A stretch of DNA of 64,000 nt from Leucoraja erinacea. Its lineage: Eukaryota. Both the position numbers and the translations under genes were made by a program. The notes under the pieces were generated by a model, which did not search any database, was not told the DNA's origin, and worked only from the letters and a program-made list of their open reading frames with translations. This document shows, one piece after another, positions 4,727 through 43,152 of this stretch; the first letter of the stretch is position 1, and every line of letters starts with the position of its first letter. Where the stretch lies: contig NC_073388.1 in the NCBI RefSeq assembly GCF_028641065.1, positions 56,668,001 to 56,732,000 of the forward strand, read 5' to 3'.

Positions 4727-5180
4727 ATGTGCCTGGGTTTCAACAACTAAGTTACAGAGAAAGGTTGAATAAGTTAGGTCTTTATTCTCTGGAGCGGAGT
4801 AGGTTAATGGGGGACTTGATAGAGGTCTTTAAAATGATGAGAGGGATAGACAGAGTTAATGTGGATCACCATTTCCCTTTGAGAATAGGGAAGATTGAAA
4901 CAAGAGAACATGACTTCAGAATTAAGGGACAGATGTTTAGGGGTAACATGAGGGGGAACTTCTTTACTCAGGTAGCGGTGTGGACTGAGCTTCCAGTGGA
5001 AGTGGTGGAGGCAGGTTCGTTGGTATCATTGAAAAATAAATTGGATAGGCAAATGGATGAGAAGGGAATGGAGGGTTATGGTATGAGTGCAGGCAGGTGG
5101 GACTAAGGGAAAAAAGTTGATCGGCACGGACTTGTAGGGCCGAGATGGCCTATTTCCGTGCTGTGATTGTTATATGGTTA
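4727..5180 (+). mobile_element. CR1/HER1-type LINE 3' fragment
   Basis: ORF 4729-5106 (PGFQQLSYRERLNKLGLYSLE...GRWD*), then the tail ttgttatatggttat. Confidence 0.92.
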
Positions 5181-5309
5181 TATGAATGAAAAGCTGTCAT
5201 CTATAATCATCTACGAAACGTTACACTTACTGATGGGAGATATTACGAGTCCAACAGAAAGCAAGAACTTATTTCCCCTCTTTTCCAATTGGCAAAGTTG
5301 CAGAATCCC

Positions 5310-6689: not shown

Positions 6690-7257
6690 GGTTATAACAA
6701 AAATAGGTGCGACAGTAAAATGTCAATTTCCCCTCTCATCCACTTTCTACCTTCCACAGGGACCACTCTCTTTGTGCCTCCCTGGTCCATGCAGCCCTTC
6801 CAGTCCACTCCTGACAACCCCCTGGCACTTTTCCCAGCAAAAGTAGGTGTAACATCTGTTCCTTCTCCTCCCTCACCATCATACAAGGAGCTAAACACTC
6901 TTTCCGGGTGAGGAACAGGTACACCTGCAATGTGGTCTCCTGTACATTAATGAAATCAAGTGTAGACTATACAGCACCTGCACTCTTGACACCTCAACCA
7001 TCTTGAGCTTCCAGTTGCACGTCATTTTAACCCTCTTTCCCACTCCCACGTCAATTTGTTTATCCTCAGTCTTCTCCATTGCCATAGTGAAACCAAATAC
7101 AAACTGGAAGAATGGCATATTTTATTCTGCTTGGGTAATTTACAACCCCATGGTATGAACATTGATTTTACTAGGTTGTTAACCCACACCTCTTTTCGTA
7201 CACACACTCACCCATCCTCTTGATTTTCTTCTATGTTTGCTCATCTCCCCCCCCCCC

Positions 7258-7288
<31 letters not shown>

Positions 7289-7380: not shown

Positions 7381-8003
7381 ATGTACTTAAAATATTTCCA
7401 TGTATTATTGCCATTTTTCAATTTAATTGACTTTCGCTGAATGTATGTGTTTAATTTTACCTAATTGATATGCCTAGTCCATGTACCACTATTAATTCTA
7501 ACAGTAGTTTACTTATAGAGCCTTTACAAGTTCTTAAATTGAAACATTTTCTACAAGGTTCAAATTATTATATTTCATCTTTGTGCACTGTCATTTTTTT
7601 ATTTTCCTGGAAAGATCAGATGATGTCAAAACAAGCGAGTTTCAACATTAACATTCGAAAGGGGGTGTATTAATATACCTGACTGTCTAAAGTGACTGAA
7701 CCATTTTGTGTTTTTGGTAAAAGTTTTATTACAAAACTGTTAAGTTTGTAACCCAAACTTTGTTTCAGATTGAAATATGATTTTAGAAAAAAGTTACAGG
7801 CCATTTTCCATTTTATTGATAGTTACCAGAGGATATTTACACACATTCTATAGTGATTTGATGAAATAACCTTGAAGCTGATTATTTCAAATAGCAAAAA
7901 AGTATTTGGGATTATAACAAACAACAGAAGAATGGAAGTTAGATAACCATATACTGTTGATTTTGTTACTTGCCACTGCTCACATATTATCATGCATTTA
8001 CAG

Positions 8004-8134
8004 GCAACGGATGCAAAAGTCAACTATGTATAATCTTTGTATGGAAATGCAGCATCTATCCCAGGAGTTTCAGTGGCTGCAACTCTCACAGGATGAGTTC
8101 CTTTGCATGAAAGTGTTGCTACTGTTTAGCATCA
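8004..8134 (+). CDS. ar: Androgen receptor exon 6 (LBD)
   Basis: Flanks tttacag|G...ATCA|gtaagt, 131 bp (as I recall, the size of human AR exon 6). Translates (E)[43 protein letters not shown] vs human [43 protein letters not shown]. Confidence 0.96.
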
Positions 8135-8451
8135 GTAAGTATGGACAGTTTTATTTGAGATGCCAGAAAAATTGATGTATCTTAATTGTAATTTTTGGGA
8201 GGCTTAAAGATACCAAATTACCACCCAATATTAGCTCAATCTAGTTTCTAACTATGAGGGTTATGTTCATACCATTACTCTATTTTTCTTCCATTTTTCA
8301 ATGTGAAAATAGAGTAGGTTAAAGCAGAAGCAAAATACTGATCTATTAAGCAGGTACGCAGCATACTTGAAGGGAGAAACCAAGTTATTTTTCAGATCAG
8401 TGCCCCTTCAGCACTACTTGGAAAAGAGAAAGGTAAACAAAATTGTTTTTA

Positions 8452-9066: not shown

Positions 9067-12000
9067 CCGTATTTCCCGGCAATGAAGACGCACCTGCGTC
9101 AAAGACGCACCGCCATTTTGAGTTGCTAAATTTTGAAATAAGGCTGGTAGGACATTGAATTTCTCACGCTCAAAAAAATAAAAAAATAAAATAAAGAAAG
9201 TAAGTATTCAATTTGCCCAAGGCTTCCAGATCTCCTCCATTCTGAATGGGTGGAAGGTGACGGCAGGTGGAGAGATGGTGAGGAAAACAGGAGCACACCG
9301 GGATAAGTTGAATCAGTTGTGATCTTATTGAATGACAATACTAGTTCAAGGGGCCAATTGGGGGAAGAGTTCCTTTCACAGCGTATGGGGAGTCTGGCCC
9401 GGGTCAGCATGGGCAGCAGCGTTGAGAATGAGGGGTCGGGTATCATGCCAGCACTCACTCACTCTCCGCTGCCGCGGCCCTCCTGGTGAGGTCCCACCCC
9501 ATTTTGGCTGGGGGGGGGGGGGGGGGGGGGGGGGGGGGAGTAACTCGGGTGGCTGCGAGCGGACAGCGGAACCGGCCACCACCTCTGCGCCTTCTGCCGG
9601 CCCGCTCATCTCTGGCAGTGCTCTCCGTCTGAACACCTCTCTCCTGCCGCTCGCCGGCCTATCTCATGTCAGCTAATTCCCGCAAATCCTTAAATTCCGA
9701 CTGCCGCCGGGAGCAGGACATGGCCATACTTGCTGCGCTGGGTGACACTGCATGGTATTCACTGCCCGGTCCCGTGTCTTTCAAGATAAAAGATCATAGA
9801 GCGGAGTGGGCGGTGGAGCAATTGGTCCCTTGATCGCACTGACATAGGAGTAAGCTCCACCGCCCGCTGTCCTGTTATCCTTTACCCGCTGACCCGCTCC
9901 ACTCTATGAACTTTGGTCTTGAGCTGGTCCCCTCACTGTCCGATCCTGACGGCCGCTCGCAGCCACCCTAGTTATTTCTCTCCCTGGCCACAATGCGGTG
10001 GCTCTACGCCTGGAGCGCCGCGGCAGCAGTGAGTGAGCGAGTGAGTGAGTTGCTGGCATGATCCCCCGACCCCCTCGTTCTCAACTCTCCTGCCAGTGCT
10101 GACCCGGGCCAGACTTCCCACATGCTGTGAAATGAACACTCCTCCCCAGCCTTTTACACCCGCTTCCAACTTTACAGCCACATCCCATTGGCTACCAGCA
10201 ATGAGGGATAGGCTTGGCTATCATAGAAACTTAGAAAATCGGTGCAGGAGTAGGCCATTCGGCTCTTCGAGCCTGCACCGCCATTCAATATGATCATGGC
10301 TGATCATCCAACTCAGTATCCTGTACCTGCCTTCTCTCCATACCCCCTGATCCCTTTAGTCACAAGGGCCACATCTAACTCCCTCTTAAATATAGCCAAT
10401 GAACTGGCCTCAACCACCTTCTGTGGCAGAGAATTCCACAGATTCACCACTGTGAACGAGATGAGAAAAATGTTTTTCTCATCTCGGTTCTAAAATAATT
10501 CCCCCTTATCCTTAAACTGTGACCCCTTGTTCTGGACTTCCCCAACATCGGGAACAATCTTCCTGTATCTAGCCTGTCCAACTCCTTAAGAATTTAGTAA
10601 GTTTCTATAAAATCCCCCCTCAATCTTATAAATTCTAGCGAGTACCAGCCGAGTCTATCCAGTCTTTCTTCAGATGAAAGTCCTGCCATCCCAGGAATCA
10701 GTCTGGTAAACCTTCTCTGTACTCCCTCTATGGTAAGAATGTCTTTCCTCAGATTAGGAGACCAAAACTGTACACATTACTCCAGGTGTGGTCTCACCAA
10801 GGCCCTGTACAACTGCAGTAGAACCTCCCTGCTCCTATACTCAAATCCTTTTGCTATGAATGCTAACATACCATTCGCTTTCTTCACTGCCTGCTGCACC
10901 TGCATGCCTACTTTCAATGACTGGTGTACCATGACACCCAGGTCTCGTTGCATCTTCCCTTTTCCTAATCGGCCACCATTCAGATAATAGTCTACTTTCC
11001 TGTTCTTGCCACCAAAGTGGATAGCCTCACATTTATCCATATTATACTGCATCTGCCATGCATTGCCTACTCACCCAACATATCCAAGTCACCTTGCAGC
11101 CTCCTAGCATCTTCCTCACAGCTAACATTGCCCCCCAGCTTCGTGTCATCCGCAAACTTGGAGATGTTGCATTCAATTCCCTTGTCCAAATCATTAATAC
11201 ATATTGTAAATAGCTGGGGTCCCAGCACTGAGCCTTGCGGTACCCCACTGCTCTTTGCTTTTTGTCTGCCAGCCAGTTCTCTATCCACATCATTATTGAA
11301 CCCCCAATACCGTGTGCTTTACGTTTGCATACTAATCTCTTATGTGGGACCTTGTCGAAAGCCTTCTGAAAGTCCAGATATAACACATCCACTGGTTGTC
11401 CCTCATCCACTCTACTAGTTACATCCTCGAAAAATTCTATAAGATTCGTCAGACATGATTTACCTTTCATAAATCCATGCTTACCAATGATTTCAACACT
11501 TTCCAAATTTGCTGCTATCCCATCTTTAATAACTGACTAGCATTTTCCCCACTACCGATGTTAGGCTGATTGGTCTGCAATTCCCCGTTTTCTCTCTCCC
11601 TCCCTTTTTAAAAAGTGGGGTTTCATTAGCTACCTTCCAATCTTCAGGAACTACTCCAGAATCTAAAGAGTTTTGAAGAATTATCACTAATGCATCCACT
11701 ATTTCTGGGGCTACTTTCTTAAGGACTCTGGGATGCAGCCTATCTGGCCCTGGGGATTTATCGGCCTTTAATCCATTCAATTTACCTAACACCACTTCCC
11801 GACTAACCTGGATTTCACTCAGTTCCTCCATCGCATTTGACCCCCGGTCCCCTGCTATTTCCGGCAGATTATTTATGTCTTCCTTAGTGAAGACAGAACC
11901 AAAGTAGTTATTCAATTGGTCTGCCATGTCCTTGTTCCCCATGATCAATGCACCTGTTTGTGACTAAGGGACCTACATTTGTTTTAACTAATCGTTTTCT

Positions 12001-12586
12001 CTTCACATATCTATAAAATCTTTTGCGGTCAGTTTTTATGATCCCTGCCAGTTTTCTTTCATAATCTATTTTCCCTTTCCTAATTAAGCCCTTTGTCCTC
12101 CTCTGCTGGACTCTGAATTTCTCCCAGTCCTCTGGTAGGCTGCTTTTTCTGGCTAATTTGTATGCTTCATCTTTTGTTTTGATACTATCCCTGATTTCCC
12201 TTGTTATCCACGGATGCACTACCTTCCCTGATTTATTATTTTGCCAAACTTAGATGAACAATTGTTGTAGTTCATCCATGCAGTCTTTAAATGCCTTCCA
12301 TTGCATATCCACCGTCAACCCTTTAAGAATCAATTGCCAGTCTAACTTGGCCAATTCACGTCTCATACCCTCAAAGCTACCTTTCTTTAAGTTCAGAACC
12401 CTTGTTTCTGAATTAACTATGTCACTCTCCATCCTAATGAAGAACTCAACCATATTATGGTCACTCTTGCCCTGAGTGCTACTGAGGCTATCCCTCAGTA
12501 CAGCAACATCAAGAACCAAGACGCAGGTAAATTTTCGTGCCTTATTTTTGGGTAAAAGATTGCGTCTTCATTGCCGGGAAATACGG
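9067..12586. mobile_element. Non-autonomous Tc2/pogo-type (Kanga/MER104-like) DNA transposon with nested CR1
   Basis: Perfect 26 bp TIRs CCGTATTTCCCGGCAATGAAGACGCA (9067-9092 / 12561-12586), TA on both sides (9065-66, 12587-88), subterminal AAGACGCA repeats, no transposase. Confidence 0.9.
10221..12472 (-). mobile_element. CR1 LINE, 5'-truncated, nested in the Tc2-type element
   Basis: Minus ORF pieces: [49 protein letters not shown]. Disrupted by frameshifts and stops. Confidence 0.95.
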
Positions 12587-13315
12587 TAATTGACGAATTT
12601 GGAAATTGATCAAATGAGCGAAGATTAATAGAATAATTAGATAATAGAATAATCTGGTTAAGATTTTGAGTTATAAAATTCAATAAAATGTACCCCCCTC
12701 CCCCTTGGTAAGGATTACCCTTACATAAGATTCATAAAGGTATATTCATGTGTGAGGCTAGTAATATCTTCTCTAGTTACGCTGGGAGCACCATACATTC
12801 ACTACCAACATTTTATGTACTATTCACAACTACTATTTTAATACTTGTTCTCTATTGGTTGACTTTTTCATTAATTCAGGTACACATTTCTTGACAGTTT
12901 TCATCTAGAAAAGACAAGATTTTTATTTTTAATTAACAAAATTATTCTAGATTTGTACCACATTTTTGTATGTGTGTGAGATTTAACAACAAAGGGTTTC
13001 CCCTGGAAACCACTTTCTGCAATCTGGGATAAATGCGCACAGCAACCAAGGATGTTATTATTTGCACAACCATCCGAACATCAGCCATGCTGAGGTGAAT
13101 CATACCTGAAAGCACACAATTTAGATTTTTATTTTAATTGTCATTTTTTGATTGATTTTCATAATTTTAGCATTATAATTTATATTGTCTTTATGTTTTA
13201 TGTAAATGTTGTGTTTTACATGGCAGGCATTTGAAATAGGACATTTTCAATTTGCATTACAATAATGTCAAGCTTGTAAACGTTTGTAAAACAAGTTTCC
13301 CTCTTCGTTTGTATT

Positions 13316-13839
13316 CAATTATAGGAAGGATGTCAACAAAATAGAGAGAGTACAGGGGAGATTTACTAGAATGTTGCCTGGGTTTCAGCAACTAAGTTAC
13401 AGAGAAAGGTTGAACAAGTTAGGGCTTTATTCTTTGGAGCGCAGAAGGTTAAGGGGGGACGATAGAGGTCTTTAAAATGATGAGAGGGATAGACAGAGTT
13501 GACGTGGATAAGCTTTTCCCGCTGAGAGTAGGGAAGATTCAAACAAGGGGACATGACTTGAGAATTAAGGGACAGAAGTTTAGGGGTAACATGAGAGGGA
13601 ACTTCTTTACTCAGAGAGTGGTGGCTGTGTGGAATGAGCTTCCAGTGAAGGTGGTGGAGGCAGGTTCGTTTTTATCATTTAAAAATAAATTGGATAGTTA
13701 TATGGACGGGAAAGGAATGGAGGGTTATGGTCTGAGCGCAGGTATATGGCACATGGGGAGAATACGTGTTCGGCACGGACTAGAAGGGTCGAGAAGGCCT
13801 GTTTCCGTGCTGTCATTGTTATATGGTTATATATGGTTA
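13316..13839 (+). mobile_element. CR1/HER1-type LINE 3' fragment inserted in the AR exon 7 acceptor
   Basis: Colinear with the 4727 and 42362 copies. Tail (atatggttat)2 ends within ~10 nt of the exon 7 start. TATT on both flanks. Confidence 0.93.
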
Positions 13840-13849
13840 TATTTGGCAG

Positions 13850-14007
13850 TTCCAGTTGAAGGCCTGAAAAATCAGAAATACTTTGATGAGCTGCGTTTGA
13901 ACTACATACAAGAACTGGACAGAGTAATTTCCTTTCAGGGGAAGGATCCTACACATAATCCACAGCGTTTTTATCAACTAACCAAGCTCCTAGACTCCCT
14001 GCAAATA
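13850..14007 (+). CDS. ar: Androgen receptor exon 7 (LBD)
   Basis: Flanks ttggcag|TTCCA...CAAATA|gtaagt, 158 bp, phase matches exon 6. Translates [53 protein letters not shown] vs human [27 protein letters not shown]...[15 protein letters not shown]. Confidence 0.96.
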
Positions 14008-14419
14008 GTAAGTTGAGATTCTATTTAAAAGTACTTACATTTATTTCACTAGTAGCAATGCACATTTCTTGTGCTGACATTGACACGTTTATATTGTTCT
14101 TTATATCTCTATCCTTTCTATGTTGTACGTTGTGTCTGAAAACAAATTAAAATGTTGAATTTTGTGATACAATCAGGGCTACGTACAGGGTGTAAAATAA
14201 TCTAACCATGCATTTGTACAAAATATATATATATACATATGGATAAGTAATTAAAATTGAAAGTAGGAGATTTACCAGCTGATTCTTGCTTTAACAGGAT
14301 TGTCCTAAGGCAAAACTAATTGGGTTATATTCTTTGGAATTTAGAAAATAACATCTGTGCTTTTTGAGACATACAAGGTCCTGAGGGAACTTGACAGACT
14401 TGATATCAAGAATGAAGAA

Positions 14420-14790
14420 AGTTTAATTGTCATATACCCTGGGAACGAAATAATCAAATTTGTACTTGCTGCAGCTTTATAGACATATTAACAACACAAC
14501 AAAACAAATAAATATACAATTATCAATAATACTAGGTAACCGGACTACTGATAGTAGCAGCAAGATGAGAGTGTGGCCAGGATGATTTGTGTCTTTGATA
14601 TTATTTGCTGTGTTTTATTTTGAGGTAGCACTTCTTGTCGATCCCTTCGATGGTGGGCATGTCATTACCTACAATGGACCTAGTAATGTCCACCACTTTC
14701 TGCAGCCTCCATCGTTCTTGGGTGTTCGAGTTACCAGACCAAGCAGTGGTGCAACTAGTCAATATGCTTTCTATGCTGCAAGTTAGATGA
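14420..14790 (-). mobile_element. Decayed Rex1/Babar-like 3' fragment
   Basis: tttaattgtcat tail plus gtccaccactttctgcagcctcc-type coding remnant. Confidence 0.5.
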
Positions 14791-14864
14791 ACTTCACTAT
14801 TTTCAAACTGAGATATTGTTTGAATGCCCTCATGTTAAGGAAATACAGTATAACAATAGGCCAA

Positions 14865-15350: not shown

Positions 15351-15485
15351 TCATAAGTTAGAGCACAATTAGGACATTCGGTCCATCAAATCTACTTTGC
15401 CATTCTCTCGTGGCTGATCTATCTTCCCCTCTCAACCCTATTCTCCTGCCTTCTCCCCATAACCCCTGACACCCCAACTAATCTC

Positions 15486-16300
15486 CCCAGGCCCGCAACC
15501 TTGGGGTGATCTTTGATTCCACCCTCTCCCTTGAGCCTCACATCCGCCATGTCATTAAAACCTCCTTCTTTCATCTCCGCAACATCGCCAAACTGACACC
15601 TACCGCTGCCGAAAAACTCATCCATGCCTTCATCTCCTCCCGACTGGACTACTGCAACTCACTTCTCCTTGGCATCAGCTCCACCTACATCAACTGACTC
15701 CAACTGGTCCAGAACGCAGCCGCCCGACTCATCACCCACACCAAATCCTGGCATCACATCACTCCAGTCCTCAAACAACTTCACTGGCTTCCCATCTCCC
15801 ACCGGATCAACTACAAAATCCTGATCCTCACCTACAAAGCCCTCCACCATCTGGCCCCCCCATATCTCACTGACCTCCTCTCCCCCTACCAACCTTCACG
15901 GTCCCTCAGATCCACATCAGCCGGTCTCCTCTCCATCCACAAGTCCAACCTCCGCAGTTTTGGGGACAGAGCCTTCTCCAGGGCAGCTCCCAGGCTCGGG
16001 AACTCCCACCCCCAACTGATCCACAATTCCGTGTCCCTCACCATCTTCCAGTCCCGCCTCAAGACCCATCTCTTTACCTCTGCCTATCCTTAGCCCCACG
16101 TCCCCCTCCCTTTTCATCTGTGCTTGATTTGCCTCATATTGTGTTTTGAATTGAATTCTGTCTTTAATTTGTGTACTAGTCATGTCTCTACTATTTATTT
16201 CATTCCCATTACATGTTTTTCCTCTACCTGCTAAATCTTTGTAAGGTGTCTTTGAGACTCTTGAAAGGCACCCATAAATAAAATGTATTATTATTATTAT
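15486..16300 (+). mobile_element. L2 LINE 3' fragment
   Basis: HAFISSRLDYCNSLL and VQNAAARLIT...HITPVLKQLHWLP motifs, tail ataaataaaatg(tat)n. Sits inside an older CR1 tail. Confidence 0.92.
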
Positions 16301-16600: not shown

Positions 16601-16756
16601 ACAGTGAGGAAACTTCACCAGTTTTCATTCGATCTCTTTGTTCAGTCTCAGTCTCTCAGCGTACAGTTCCCTGAAATGATGGCAGAAATAATCTCTGCCC
16701 AGGTACCAAAGATCCTCGCTGGTATGGCCAAACCGCTTCTTTTTCATGAACAATGA
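16601..16756 (+). CDS. ar: Androgen receptor exon 8, coding part (helices 11/12, AF-2, stop)
   Basis: Acceptor ttttacag|ACA. Translates [51 protein letters not shown], colinear with human IARELHQFTFDLL...[32 protein letters not shown] at 16754-16756. Confidence 0.97.
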
Positions 16757-24511: not shown

Positions 24512-24760
24512 TCTTTACTCAGAGAGTGGTAGCGGTGTGGAATGAGCTTCCAGTGGAAGTGGTGGAGGCAGGTTCATTGGTATCATTTAAAAATAAATTG
24601 GATAGGCATATGGATGAGAAGGGAATGGAGGGTTATTGGTATGAGTGCAGGCAGGTGGGACTAAGGGGGGAAAAAAAAAATTGTTCGGCACGGACTTGTA
24701 GGGCCGAGATGGCCTGTTTCCGTGTTGTAATTGTTATATGGTTATATTATATGGTTATAT
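24512..24760 (+). mobile_element. CR1/HER1-type 3' fragment inside a decayed Rex1-like remnant (~24020-24850)
   Basis: [15 protein letters not shown]..., tail (atatggtt)n. Flanks encode SSAFNTINP-like RT remnants. Confidence 0.85.
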
Positions 24761-32450: not shown

Positions 32451-34584
32451 TGTTCTGTGAGGGCTTGTTGAATGCCGGCTACAAAAGTCATGACAGACAA
32501 ACTGCATGTATGATACAATTTGCTATATTAGGAAATATCTGAAAAATCTGTATGGATAAAACTACTCATGCTAGTTTTAACACCCTCTTATGGCAAAGGT
32601 GATTTGCTTAAGAGTTAAATTATAAAGTGCTGTGCTCTTTACAGCAGGAAAAGTAATAGCCACCATGTTCAACTCATTCCTTGCAACTTCAGAAGGTTGG
32701 CTGGTTTGCTAGGAAAAACAACATTTTTGCAATGGATGTACTGGGTGTTCATTTGGAGTATATGGGATCTTCGAGTGCATTATCCTGGGAATAATCATTG
32801 TTCTGCAGTCCTTGTAGAATGGCATCTTCCCACCACACTGCAGCACTGGTCCAGTGTGTCGATCTCTAAACCTTATGGCTCCACCTTTACTTCCTGATTC
32901 ACCAACCTCACAATTTGCCACGTCCTCAATTTCCAAATTCACTCCTGTCATTTACATTCTCAGCACAATCCCTGCCCACCCACTACCTCCTACCCTATTA
33001 TAAGGAACAGGTCCATGAAGCCTCTTCCCACCCATAAACTCAGAGAACTAATGCCCTAGCACTTCATGACCTTGATTTTTGTATCATCGCCGCTTCACCA
33101 AAGGACAAAAATCATGGTGCACTTCTGTTCTTTACCAGATGAGAGGTGCTATATAAAATACAGATTTTTGATTGTCAATGGGAGTACATTTACCCTAAAT
33201 TCACCAATCCAAAATAGGGAGGTGACACTGAAGGTAAATGGGGGGTTCTCAACCCCAGGAATGTAAACAAGAGTCAGAAATTAAAACAACATTGTAACGT
33301 GGCAGCCACTTCCACTTTCTTCTTTGCACTTCTTCCCTAGCATATTGTTCACAATCCAAAAATAAAGCTATGAAAACAGCTCCTCACAATGAGCAAAGAA
33401 TGACATTAATAAATAATGTTATTACAGTATATCTAACTATATGTCCTAACTATATCCATAACTTCCATGCCTGATCCTAAAACCTACTTCCTCCAGCTTA
33501 ACAAACATACCACATCTTCAGCTTCCATCATTGAGAGAGTTCCAACAAAATACAGCAAGGAAACTATAGCTTTGGCCTAGCAGGCCAATTCCAACCATCA
33601 GTCATCCATTTGCATTGATCCATTTTTTATTCTCCACGTTCTCAACACACCTCATATTCTATATCTACACACTAGCAGCAAATTACAGCAGGCAATTAAA
33701 TTACCGATTTACATGTTTTTAGAATGTGGAAAGAAACCGGATTACCAGATGGAAACTTTATTCTTTCAACCATAGTCAAGATTGAACTTGGGTCTAATGT
33801 TATGAGACTACAACTCTACTAGCTGTGCCCATTCAGTTTCCCTTACCACCACCACCAATCACGTCATTGTTGGCATTCATGTCATTTTGTAAATTATTAA
33901 AGAGTTTAATTTTAAAATTAACATGAGACTCTGTACTTGGCGGCAAGATAGTATTCAACTAAATGTAGATTCAACTAGCCATGGGAAATTGGAAGAGGGG
34001 GGTGCAGTGGGCATTACAGAGCAGAGCCATGGTTGTTGGAAGGTGATCACAGGCCAAGGAACCACAAAACCTTGCAGCAATTCAGCTATTATGCTTACAC
34101 TGACTAAATTTAAATTGTGTCTTAATTCATTGCTTTATCCCAACTTTACCTACATAATCTTGAAAATTAATTTACTCAATTACTTTTAAACATTTAATAA
34201 TATTTCACTTATGTTGTAGCCTGTGGAATAAATTGTCTTCATTTCTTTTTTTCTAATTATTTTAAATTGTTTCATTCTTACTAATTATTGCAGCAAAAAC
34301 AACTTTTCCTTACTTGGTGTAACCTTCACTGCTCCATTGAGCACAGTTTTCCCACTAAATCTGAATGCAGCTGCAGTATCTCAAGCTCTTATCCGAATAA
34401 GTACACTGAATTGGTATTCCATGCAAAAATATATAGAGCATCCATTTTCCCCCAGCTAATAACAAACTTATTTTGGCATCCAAATTCCACAAGCATCATT
34501 CTTTGTGAGGATGAGGGCTTCAAAAGCATCGGAGCATCATTACCTCCAAGTCCTCTTACAAATTGATCACCTAATTTTGTTATA

Positions 34585-34720
34585 ACCATATAACAATTAC
34601 AGCACGGAAACAGGCCATCTCGACCCTTCTAGTCCATGCCGAACACATAATCTCCCCTAGTCCCATATACCTGCGCTCAGACCATAACCTTCCATTCCCT
34701 TCCCATCCATATAACTATCA
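34585..34720 (-). mobile_element. CR1/HER1-type 3' tail
   Basis: accatataacaattacagcacggaaacaggcc..., same subfamily as the 13316 copy. Confidence 0.85.
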
Positions 34721-34796
34721 AATTGGATATCACAACTTAATGTCATTATGAGAGTACTTTCGCCAGAAGCTAACTGTGGTTCATTTTACAGAATTA

Positions 34797-42361: not shown

Positions 42362-43152
42362 TAATAACCATATAACAATTACAGCACGGAAACAGGCCAT
42401 CTCGGCCCTACAAGTCCGTGCCGAACAACTTTTTTCCCTTAGTCCCACCTGCCTGCACTCATACCATAACCCTCCATTCTCTTCTCATCCATATGCCTAT
42501 CCAATTTATTTTTAAATGATACCAACGAACCTGCCTCCACCACTTCCACTGGAAGCTCATTCCACACCGCTACTACTCTCTGAGTAAAAGGGAAAAGCTT
42601 GTCCACATCAACTCTGTCTATCCCTCTCATCATTTTAAAGACCTCTATCAGGTCCCCCCTTAACCTGCGCTCCAGAGAATAAAGACCTAACTTATTCAAC
42701 CTTTCTCTGTAACTTAGTTGTTGAAACCCAGGCAACATTCTAGTAAATCTCCTCTGTACTCTCTCTATTTTGTTGACATCCTTCCTATTATTTGTGCGAC
42801 CAAAATTGTACACCATACTCCAGATTTGGTCTCACCAATGCCTTGTACAATTTTAACATTACATCCCAGCTTCTATACTCAATGCTCTGATTTATAAAGG
42901 CTAGCATACCAAAAGCTTTCTTTACCACCCTATCTATACGAGAGTCCACCTTCAAGGAACTATGCACGGTTATTCCCAGATCCCTCTGTTCAACTGTATA
43001 CTTCAATTCCCTACCATTTACCATGTACGTCCTATTTTGATTTGTCCTGCCAAGGTGTAGCACCTCACATTTATCAGCATTAAACTCCATCTGCCATCTT
43101 TCAGCCCATTCTTCCAAATGACCTAAATCACTCTGTAGACTTTGGAAATCCA
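42362..43152 (-). mobile_element. CR1/HER1-type LINE 3' fragment
   Basis: ORFs 42439-42816 and 42788-43153 (WQMEFNADKC, RPNLEYGVQFW, GRWD*). Confidence 0.93.

What the first reader, a model, noticed from the sequence alone, without database searches (positions are those of the whole stretch)
13296..13849. CR1 LINE inserted inside the AR exon 7 splice acceptor, separating the pyrimidine tract from the AG
Seen: a 524 bp sense LINE fragment (13316-13839) with TATT on both sides. Removing it restores a textbook acceptor, gtttccctcttcgtttg-tatt-tggcag|TTCCA. The true AG (13848-49) is now preceded only by the LINE tail (ctgtcattgttatatggttatatatggttat), which is U-rich and AG-free for ~50 nt. The original tract (13296-13315) now sits just before a new LINE-derived AG (13323-24). 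Inference: either the LINE tail has been co-opted as branch point/pyrimidine tract of an essential exon, or splicing to 13325 gives exon6-RRMSTK-stop, an LBD-truncated AR or NMD target loosely reminiscent of truncated human AR variants.
Basis: partly seen in the sequence, partly recalled or inferred. Interest (0 to 1): 0.8.

Follow-up and report, generated by a model that had tools for sequence, protein, structure and literature searches.

The report
LINE tail now feeds AR acceptor
In a skate's androgen receptor gene a broken jumping gene sits 6-10 bases before a hormone-binding exon, yet the exon is still spliced correctly, so the splicing branch point is likely now borrowed from the jumping gene's tail.

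Summary
The insertion is real. A young, 5'-truncated, sense CR1-type LINE (13316-13839/42) lies 6-10 nt before exon 7 of the single-copy androgen receptor gene of a skate. Its tail abuts the acceptor in DNA contigs of two other labelled organisms and is missing in a more distant third (the empty-site letters were not shown beyond 9 nt). RNA contigs of 4 of 4 runs splice 8134->13850->16601 unbroken; no joint to 13325 was listed (depth 2-9, rare isoforms invisible). With 58 AGs between the old tract and the exon, the branch point is likely LINE-derived. The 51-nt AG-free, U-rich tail is a family trait, not an adaptation, and leaves a weak but in-range acceptor. Best reading: passive tolerance, held by exon definition through the strong exon 7 donor. 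The truncated-AR idea has no support but is not excluded at low level. The TATT duplication alone is not beyond chance. The scan noted similar LINE/SINE-at-acceptor cases in four other shark or ray genomes (unchecked leads). A neat variant of known TE-supplied splice signals.

The parts
8004..8134 (+). AR exon 6 (131 nt), donor at 8135
   Evidence: RNA joint 8134->13850
13296..13315 (+). Displaced ancestral pyrimidine tract, ending in TATT
   Evidence: single-copy flank; 16 of 20 pyrimidines when rejoined in silico; ancestral role inferred
13316..13842 (+). 5'-truncated sense CR1-type LINE: end of ORF2, 3' UTR and short-repeat tail (3' boundary 13839-13842)
   Evidence: family ORF2 has RVT_1, about 50% identical to bird and turtle RT proteins
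13323..13324 (+). LINE-derived decoy AG behind the old tract; use not seen
   Evidence: rank 2 of 315 intron-6 AGs in a home-made matrix; no joint listed
13684..13689 (+). AATAAA inside the LINE, a possible cryptic poly(A) signal; untested
13771..13812 (+). Predicted LINE 3' stem-loop enclosing the last four upstream AGs
   Evidence: z -1.84, 8 of 200 shuffles as stable; 0 of 14 pairs with compensatory change
13797..13847 (+). 51-nt AG-free zone; candidate branch adenosines 13815 (-35), 13821 (-29), 13829 (-21), all in LINE sequence
   Evidence: branch use inferred, not mapped
13840..13849 (+). Remnant of the native acceptor with the AG that is used
   Evidence: joint, GT..AG; X13 contig fits from 13841
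13850..14007 (+). AR exon 7 (158 nt, ligand-binding domain) with a strong donor at 14008
   Evidence: donor score 10.0 in a native range of 4.0-11.2
16601..16756 (+). AR exon 8 coding part

Best explanation
A young CR1-type LINE fragment sits 6-10 nt before AR exon 7, the exon is still spliced at its original AG, and the branch point and most of the U-rich tract are likely now supplied passively by the LINE's own tail. Steps: (shown) sense insertion, shared by organisms A, B and D, absent in C; (shown) exon 6-7-8 mRNA is intact in 4 runs; (shown) the family tail is AG-free for about 40-50 nt and repeats a GTTAT motif with U at -2 of an A; (inferred) U1 at the strong exon 7 donor recruits U2AF/U2 across the 158-nt exon to the nearest AG with a clear zone, and U2 branches at A13815, A13821 or A13829; (inferred) the stronger-looking decoy at 13325 is ignored because it has no good donor at exon distance, like other decoys in this intron. 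The insertion was tolerated, probably near-neutral, rather than selected.
For: Joints 8134->13850 and 14007->16601 on one contig with 0 differences in X3, X6, X8, X5 (3 studies, 2 organism labels); depth over 13920-14220 equals that one contig in each run. Tail-acceptor junction in X12 and X19; X13 fits only from 13841 and runs 798 other letters upstream. Flank divergence B 0.4%, D 1.5%, C 3.1% and copy-to-family divergence 1.5% fit an insertion between the C and D splits. 58 AGs block the old tract from acting as a distant branch point (PMC1431707 passages). AG-free 3' ends of 38-50 nt in 28 of 29 other copies. Acceptor score 4.1 lies inside the native range 3.4-14.7, and one native OPHN1 acceptor has the same GTTAT at -21 as its best branch motif. 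Best LINE donor after 13325 scores 6.0 and is 417 nt away; an ancestral-intron decoy at 12880 scores 11.9 and is also unused in the listed joints.
Against: No lariat or branch mapping. The acceptor is poor: 11 of 20 pyrimidines and a longest run of 3, tied lowest among 23 native acceptors; only 2 of 23 score lower; 25 of 315 AGs in the intron outscore it. All branch candidates have G at -3. The matrix is home-made from 23 sites of two genes. Contigs drop rare isoforms, 13 joint rows were hidden, and the runs are RNA only by guess (their joints at GT..AG argue that they are). C's empty-site letters were not shown and its fit starts one base short of the prediction.
Confidence: 0.72

Rival explanations
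1. Leaky acceptor: most mRNA is normal, but a minority uses the old tract with the LINE AG (13325) or skips exon 7, giving stop-containing transcripts that NMD clears; the insertion slightly lowers or tunes AR output.
For: 13325 scores 8.8 against 4.1 for the used AG; a candidate donor lies 417 nt on; both 6->13325 and 6->16601 hit early stops; contig depth 2-9 cannot show isoforms of a few percent.
Against: No such joint among 15 listed; contigs do not break at the end of exon 6, whereas X3 does break exactly at the start of exon 6, where an exon-5-skipping form probably competes. Skipping exon 7 would end in the last exon and should escape NMD, yet is not listed.
Confidence: 0.17
2. LINE-derived terminal exon: splicing to 13325 plus cleavage after the LINE's AATAAA (13684) makes a stable mRNA for an AR that ends after exon 6 with RRMSTK and lacks the last LBD helices.
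For: Tract, AG, stop and AATAAA are all present in order; LINEs are known to give cryptic splice and poly(A) sites (PMC6108849, passages).
Against: Such an mRNA would escape NMD and should be the easiest to see, yet no joint was listed; the AATAAA is ordinary ORF2 sequence followed by purine-rich bases; the product keeps most of the LBD, unlike human AR-V7 (recalled).
Confidence: 0.05
3. The old branch point and tract still work: the LINE is looped out by RNA structure, bringing them next to the AG.
For: An antisense CR1 of another family in the same intron is 61% identical to the insert over 417 nt (10324-10731).
Against: No pair spanning more than 300 nt reaches probability 0.5 in 13250-13900; the old region has only poor branch motifs in -44..-18; 58 AGs intervene.
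Confidence: 0.04

Closest known systems
Canine merle SINEC_Cf in PMEL, intron 10/exon 11 boundary (PMC7349775, passages)
   Same: Retroposon lodged in a splice acceptor of an existing exon, pushing the old branch point away; element sequence takes over the tract.
   Different: Merle is an antisense SINE whose poly(T) is the tract, has a 15-bp duplication, is polymorphic and causes mis-splicing; here a sense LINE with a non-poly(A) repeat tail, shared across organisms, with normal splicing in all runs laid.
Branch points inside exonised inverted Alu elements (Mercer et al. 2015, PMC4315302, passages)
   Same: A retroelement consensus carries a ready-made branch motif and tract (154 mapped branch points).
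   Different: Those serve new Alu exons in antisense; here the element would serve an old constitutive exon in sense, and the branch point is not mapped.
TE under-representation zones at splice acceptors (Zhang et al. 2011, PMC3088655, passages and section 8)
   Same: Same class of site: a TE under 20 nt from an acceptor.
   Different: In mammals sense LINEs there are depleted and usually harmful; this is a surviving exception. The paper covers human and mouse, not CR1 in fishes.
LINE-derived exons and splice sites (Attig et al. 2018, PMC6108849, passages)
   Same: CR1 and L2 sequence supplies splice sites; hotspot at the ORF2/3' UTR end.
   Different: There old LINEs creep close to exons and young ones are excluded; this copy is young (1.5% from its family) and adjacent to a constitutive exon.

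Membership tests
Androgen receptor (NR3C4), exon 7 | Best similarity to AR over PR/GR/MR | tested here: met
   PDB best hits ancestral AR 89.5 bits and AR 70 bits, GR 45-51; 100% to a little-skate AR protein, P0001
Androgen receptor (NR3C4), exon 7 | Single eight-exon gene next to OPHN1 | tested here: met
   8 exon matches on C12, no second copy listed (stricter first look); OPHN1 exons downstream on the other strand
CR1-group non-LTR retrotransposon | ORF2 with reverse transcriptase domain | tested here: met
   RVT_1 at E 1e-32 and 1e-34 in two longer copies; the fragment itself lies behind the domain and has no Pfam hit
CR1-group non-LTR retrotransposon | 5' truncation, intact 3' end with short-repeat tail instead of poly(A) | tested here: met
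   that this is typical of CR1 is recalled; PMC13343379 (passages) says poly(A) tails mark Zenon only
CR1-group non-LTR retrotransposon | 3' UTR stem-loop | tested here: inconclusive
   folds in 5 of 5 copies, z -1.84, no compensatory pairs
Canonical CR1 clade (versus L2, Rex1) | RT phylogeny groups with reference CR1 | not tested
   No named reference set; top named hits are bird and turtle RT proteins at about 45-52%, which fits CR1 since bird LINEs are mostly CR1 (recalled)
L1-type insertion with target-site duplication | Direct repeat beyond chance at both ends | tested here: inconclusive
   4-nt TATT; 17 of 55 ends versus 19% of mismatched pairs reach 4 nt
TE-supplied branch point | Lariat branch mapped inside the element | not testable with these tools
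   only contigs were available
TE-supplied branch point | Downstream AG used while the AG-free zone plus 15 nt lies wholly in the element | tested here: met
   joint to 13850; zone 13797-13847, all but the last 5-8 nt LINE
Truncated AR splice variants (AR-V type) | Expressed transcript joining an AR exon to a cryptic terminal exon | tested here: inconclusive
   none among 15 listed joints, 13 hidden, depth 2-9

The most novel reading that the evidence does not exclude
Chondrichthyan CR1 tails are portable acceptor cassettes: about 45 AG-free, U-rich bases with repeated UNA motifs behind a hairpin that hides the last AGs. Sense insertions into splice acceptors would then be tolerated far more often than in mammals, and LINE tails would have replaced the branch points of many old constitutive exons in sharks and rays. 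The AR intron, with filled and empty species at hand, is a direct test case.
Probability: 0.2. Interest if true: 0.62.

Novelty: new variant of a known kind. Interest (0 to 1): 0.38.

Why it matters
Insertions between tract and AG are the textbook harmful class, and young sense LINEs are the most depleted there in mammals. A young one in front of a ligand-binding exon of AR, a gene that drives clasper development in skates (PMC4403318, passages), with normal mRNA, shows how little native sequence an acceptor needs when the exon is well defined, and offers a natural filled/empty pair for minigene work and a presence/absence marker for skate phylogeny. One survivor is not surprising in itself: with 38,229 tails, 20-26 would fall within 15 nt of an acceptor by chance (assuming 150,000-200,000 acceptors). 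It would matter more if such cases proved systematic.

Tried and rejected
Genome screen for further cases: 177 sites have the tail followed by an acceptor-like motif; I examined the 100 listed, dropped 67 (repeat downstream or no open frame of 24 aa), and scanned 43 peptides of 33 sites against Pfam: 0 credible hits, one at E 0.048. About one true acceptor was expected without selection and Pfam saw only 2 of 3 AR exons, so this only argues against massive enrichment. A second AR copy or haplotig with an empty site: none listed. Organism E (X21) did not cover the junction. No holder was on record as RNA. The loose-end table was filled by an unnoticed repeat at about 14380-14780, so C's upstream letters were not seen; the length of C's contig (to about 12515 if empty) only roughly fits the next repeat edge (12472). 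Adaptive improvement of the tail: rejected. Looping out by long-range pairing: not predicted. Assembly artefact: rejected. Look-alike notes in relatives: none. Paper searches for this locus or for a CR1 tail serving an old acceptor listed no such report; the library lacks most subscription journals, and no supplements were opened.

Full report
The gene. The exon at 13850-14007 reads as androgen receptor: best solved-structure hits are ancestral AR (89.5 bits) and AR (70), with GR at 45-51, and it is identical to a little-skate AR protein, P0001. P0001 maps as eight exons on one contig with no second copy listed, with OPHN1 downstream on the other strand. Exon 6 is 8004-8134, exon 7 13850-14007, exon 8 starts at 16601; joined they give the intact end of the ligand-binding domain.

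The insert. 13316-13839 matches the 39 best other places in the genome at 97-98% (40 of 2808 candidates scored). Longer copies carry RVT_1 and are about 50% identical to bird and turtle reverse transcriptases, which with the truncated 5' end and short-repeat tail makes it a CR1-type LINE; no tree against named references was made. The tail motif occurs 38,229 times. This copy has 9 substitutions and one 2-nt gap against the majority of its 29 nearest copies, 1.5%, the same as their mean. TATT flanks it, but TAT also continues the tail, and 4-nt duplications are reached by 19% of mismatched end pairs against 17 of 55 real ones, so the duplication is plausible, not proven.

Is it real and shared? 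DNA contigs were laid on 13822-14800. In X12 (organism B, 3 differences) and X19 (organism D, 11 differences, 16 gap letters) the contig includes the tail and ends 8 and 5 letters further on, as expected at a high-copy repeat. In X13 (organism C, 23 differences, 22 gap letters) the contig fits only from 13841 and continues for 798 other letters at single-copy depth: the site is empty there. Those letters were not displayed, and the fit starts one base short of the predicted 13840. X21 did not cover the junction. Divergences (0.4%, 1.5%, 3.1%) and the copy's own 1.5% agree with an insertion after the split from C and before that from D.

Is the exon spliced? In 4 of 4 runs laid (X3, X6, X8, X5; three studies; RNA by guess, but with GT..AG joints) one contig joins 8134 to 13850 and 14007 to 16601 with no differences. 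Depth over the end of exon 7 equals that contig alone. No joint to 13325 or straight to 16601 is among the 15 listed; 13 rows were hidden. The contigs do not break at the end of exon 6, while X3 breaks exactly at its start, where an exon-5-skipping form seems to compete (X5 contig; annotated isoform P0122), so an abundant alternative can show up this way. At depth 2-9 a rare or NMD-cleared form cannot.

What serves as the acceptor? 58 AGs lie between the old tract and the exon, the last at 13795. Verified distant branch points need an AG-free path, and the branch lies in that zone or up to about 15 nt before it (PMC1431707, passages); here that whole range is LINE. Candidates are A13815, A13821 and A13829, each with U at -2 and G at -3. 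The AG-free end is a family trait, 38-50 nt in 28 of 29 copies, and this copy's two changes there add an AG and weaken one motif: no sign of adaptation. A predicted hairpin at 13771-13812 encloses the last four AGs (weak support). Against 23 native acceptors of AR and OPHN1 (one placed by hand between two AGs), the present acceptor ties for fewest pyrimidines and scores 4.1 in a leave-one-out range of 3.4-14.7; the in-silico empty site scores 6.5, the decoy at 13325 8.8. The empty site has the better tract but poorer branch motifs. Decoys are common: 25 of 315 AGs in the intron outscore the real one. What sets 13850 apart is a donor scoring 10.0 (itself in the training set) 158 nt away, while the best donor after 13325 scores 6.0 at 417 nt. 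Exon definition therefore explains the choice; this step is inferred.

Rivals. Low-level use of 13325 or skipping stays open (0.17). A LINE terminal exon using the AATAAA at 13684 would give a stable truncated AR and should be the easiest to see, yet was not listed (0.05). Looping out of the LINE is not predicted (0.04).

Comparison and novelty. TE-supplied tracts and branch points are known from the merle SINE (PMC7349775, passages) and inverted Alus (PMC4315302, passages); young sense LINEs within 20 nt of acceptors are depleted and often harmful in mammals (PMC3088655, passages and section 8; PMC6108849, passages). This case differs in being sense, young, without poly(A), in front of an old constitutive exon, and shared between organisms. 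My searches listed no report of it. Four unchecked notes of this scan describe similar cases in other sharks and rays. My own screen of 100 of 177 tail-plus-acceptor-like sites found no further exon, with little power, and 20-26 such landings are expected by chance. Verdict: real, RNA-supported, probably tolerated passively; new variant of a known kind; interest 0.38.

Noticed in passing
window 8001-8004 and L032/L035 (AR exons 4, 5): Signs of an exon-5-skipping AR isoform in skates: X3's contig begins exactly at 8004, X5's carries CAG plus 4 other letters before exon 6 (exon 4 ends in CAG), and P0122 (Rhinoraja AR isoform X2) is annotated as exon 4 joined to exon 6 with a frameshift and early stop. 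It would delete most of the LBD.
   Followed up: partly
window 4730-5183 (+), 24512-24760 (+), 34581-34724 (-), 42364-42792 (-): Four more fragments of the same LINE family in the window; the first lies in AR intron 5 in sense, 86% identical to the insert.
   Followed up: partly
window 10224-12472 (-): A young antisense CR1-type copy of another family in AR intron 6; 10324-10731 is 61% identical to the insert in inverted orientation, so weak double-stranded pairing in the pre-mRNA is conceivable.
   Followed up: partly
window 12855-12880: The highest-scoring AG of intron 6 (11.9) lies in unique intron sequence and is not among the listed RNA joints.
   Followed up: partly
window 13854-13855: A second AG six bases into exon 7; its use would remove two codons in frame. 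Not among listed joints.
   Followed up: no
window 7247-7274, 9510-9538, 9360-9508/9987-10146: A 28-nt C run, a 29-nt G run and a 77% inverted repeat of about 150 nt around the G run.
   Followed up: no
window 14380-14780 and 15482-16090: High-copy repeats in AR intron 7; the second has sense frames that look like the end of an L2-type ORF2 (family recalled, not tested).
   Followed up: no
L062, L098, L111: LINE tails followed directly by internal ORF2 sequence of a CR1-type element, at nearly the same point, suggesting tandem or nested insertion.
   Followed up: no
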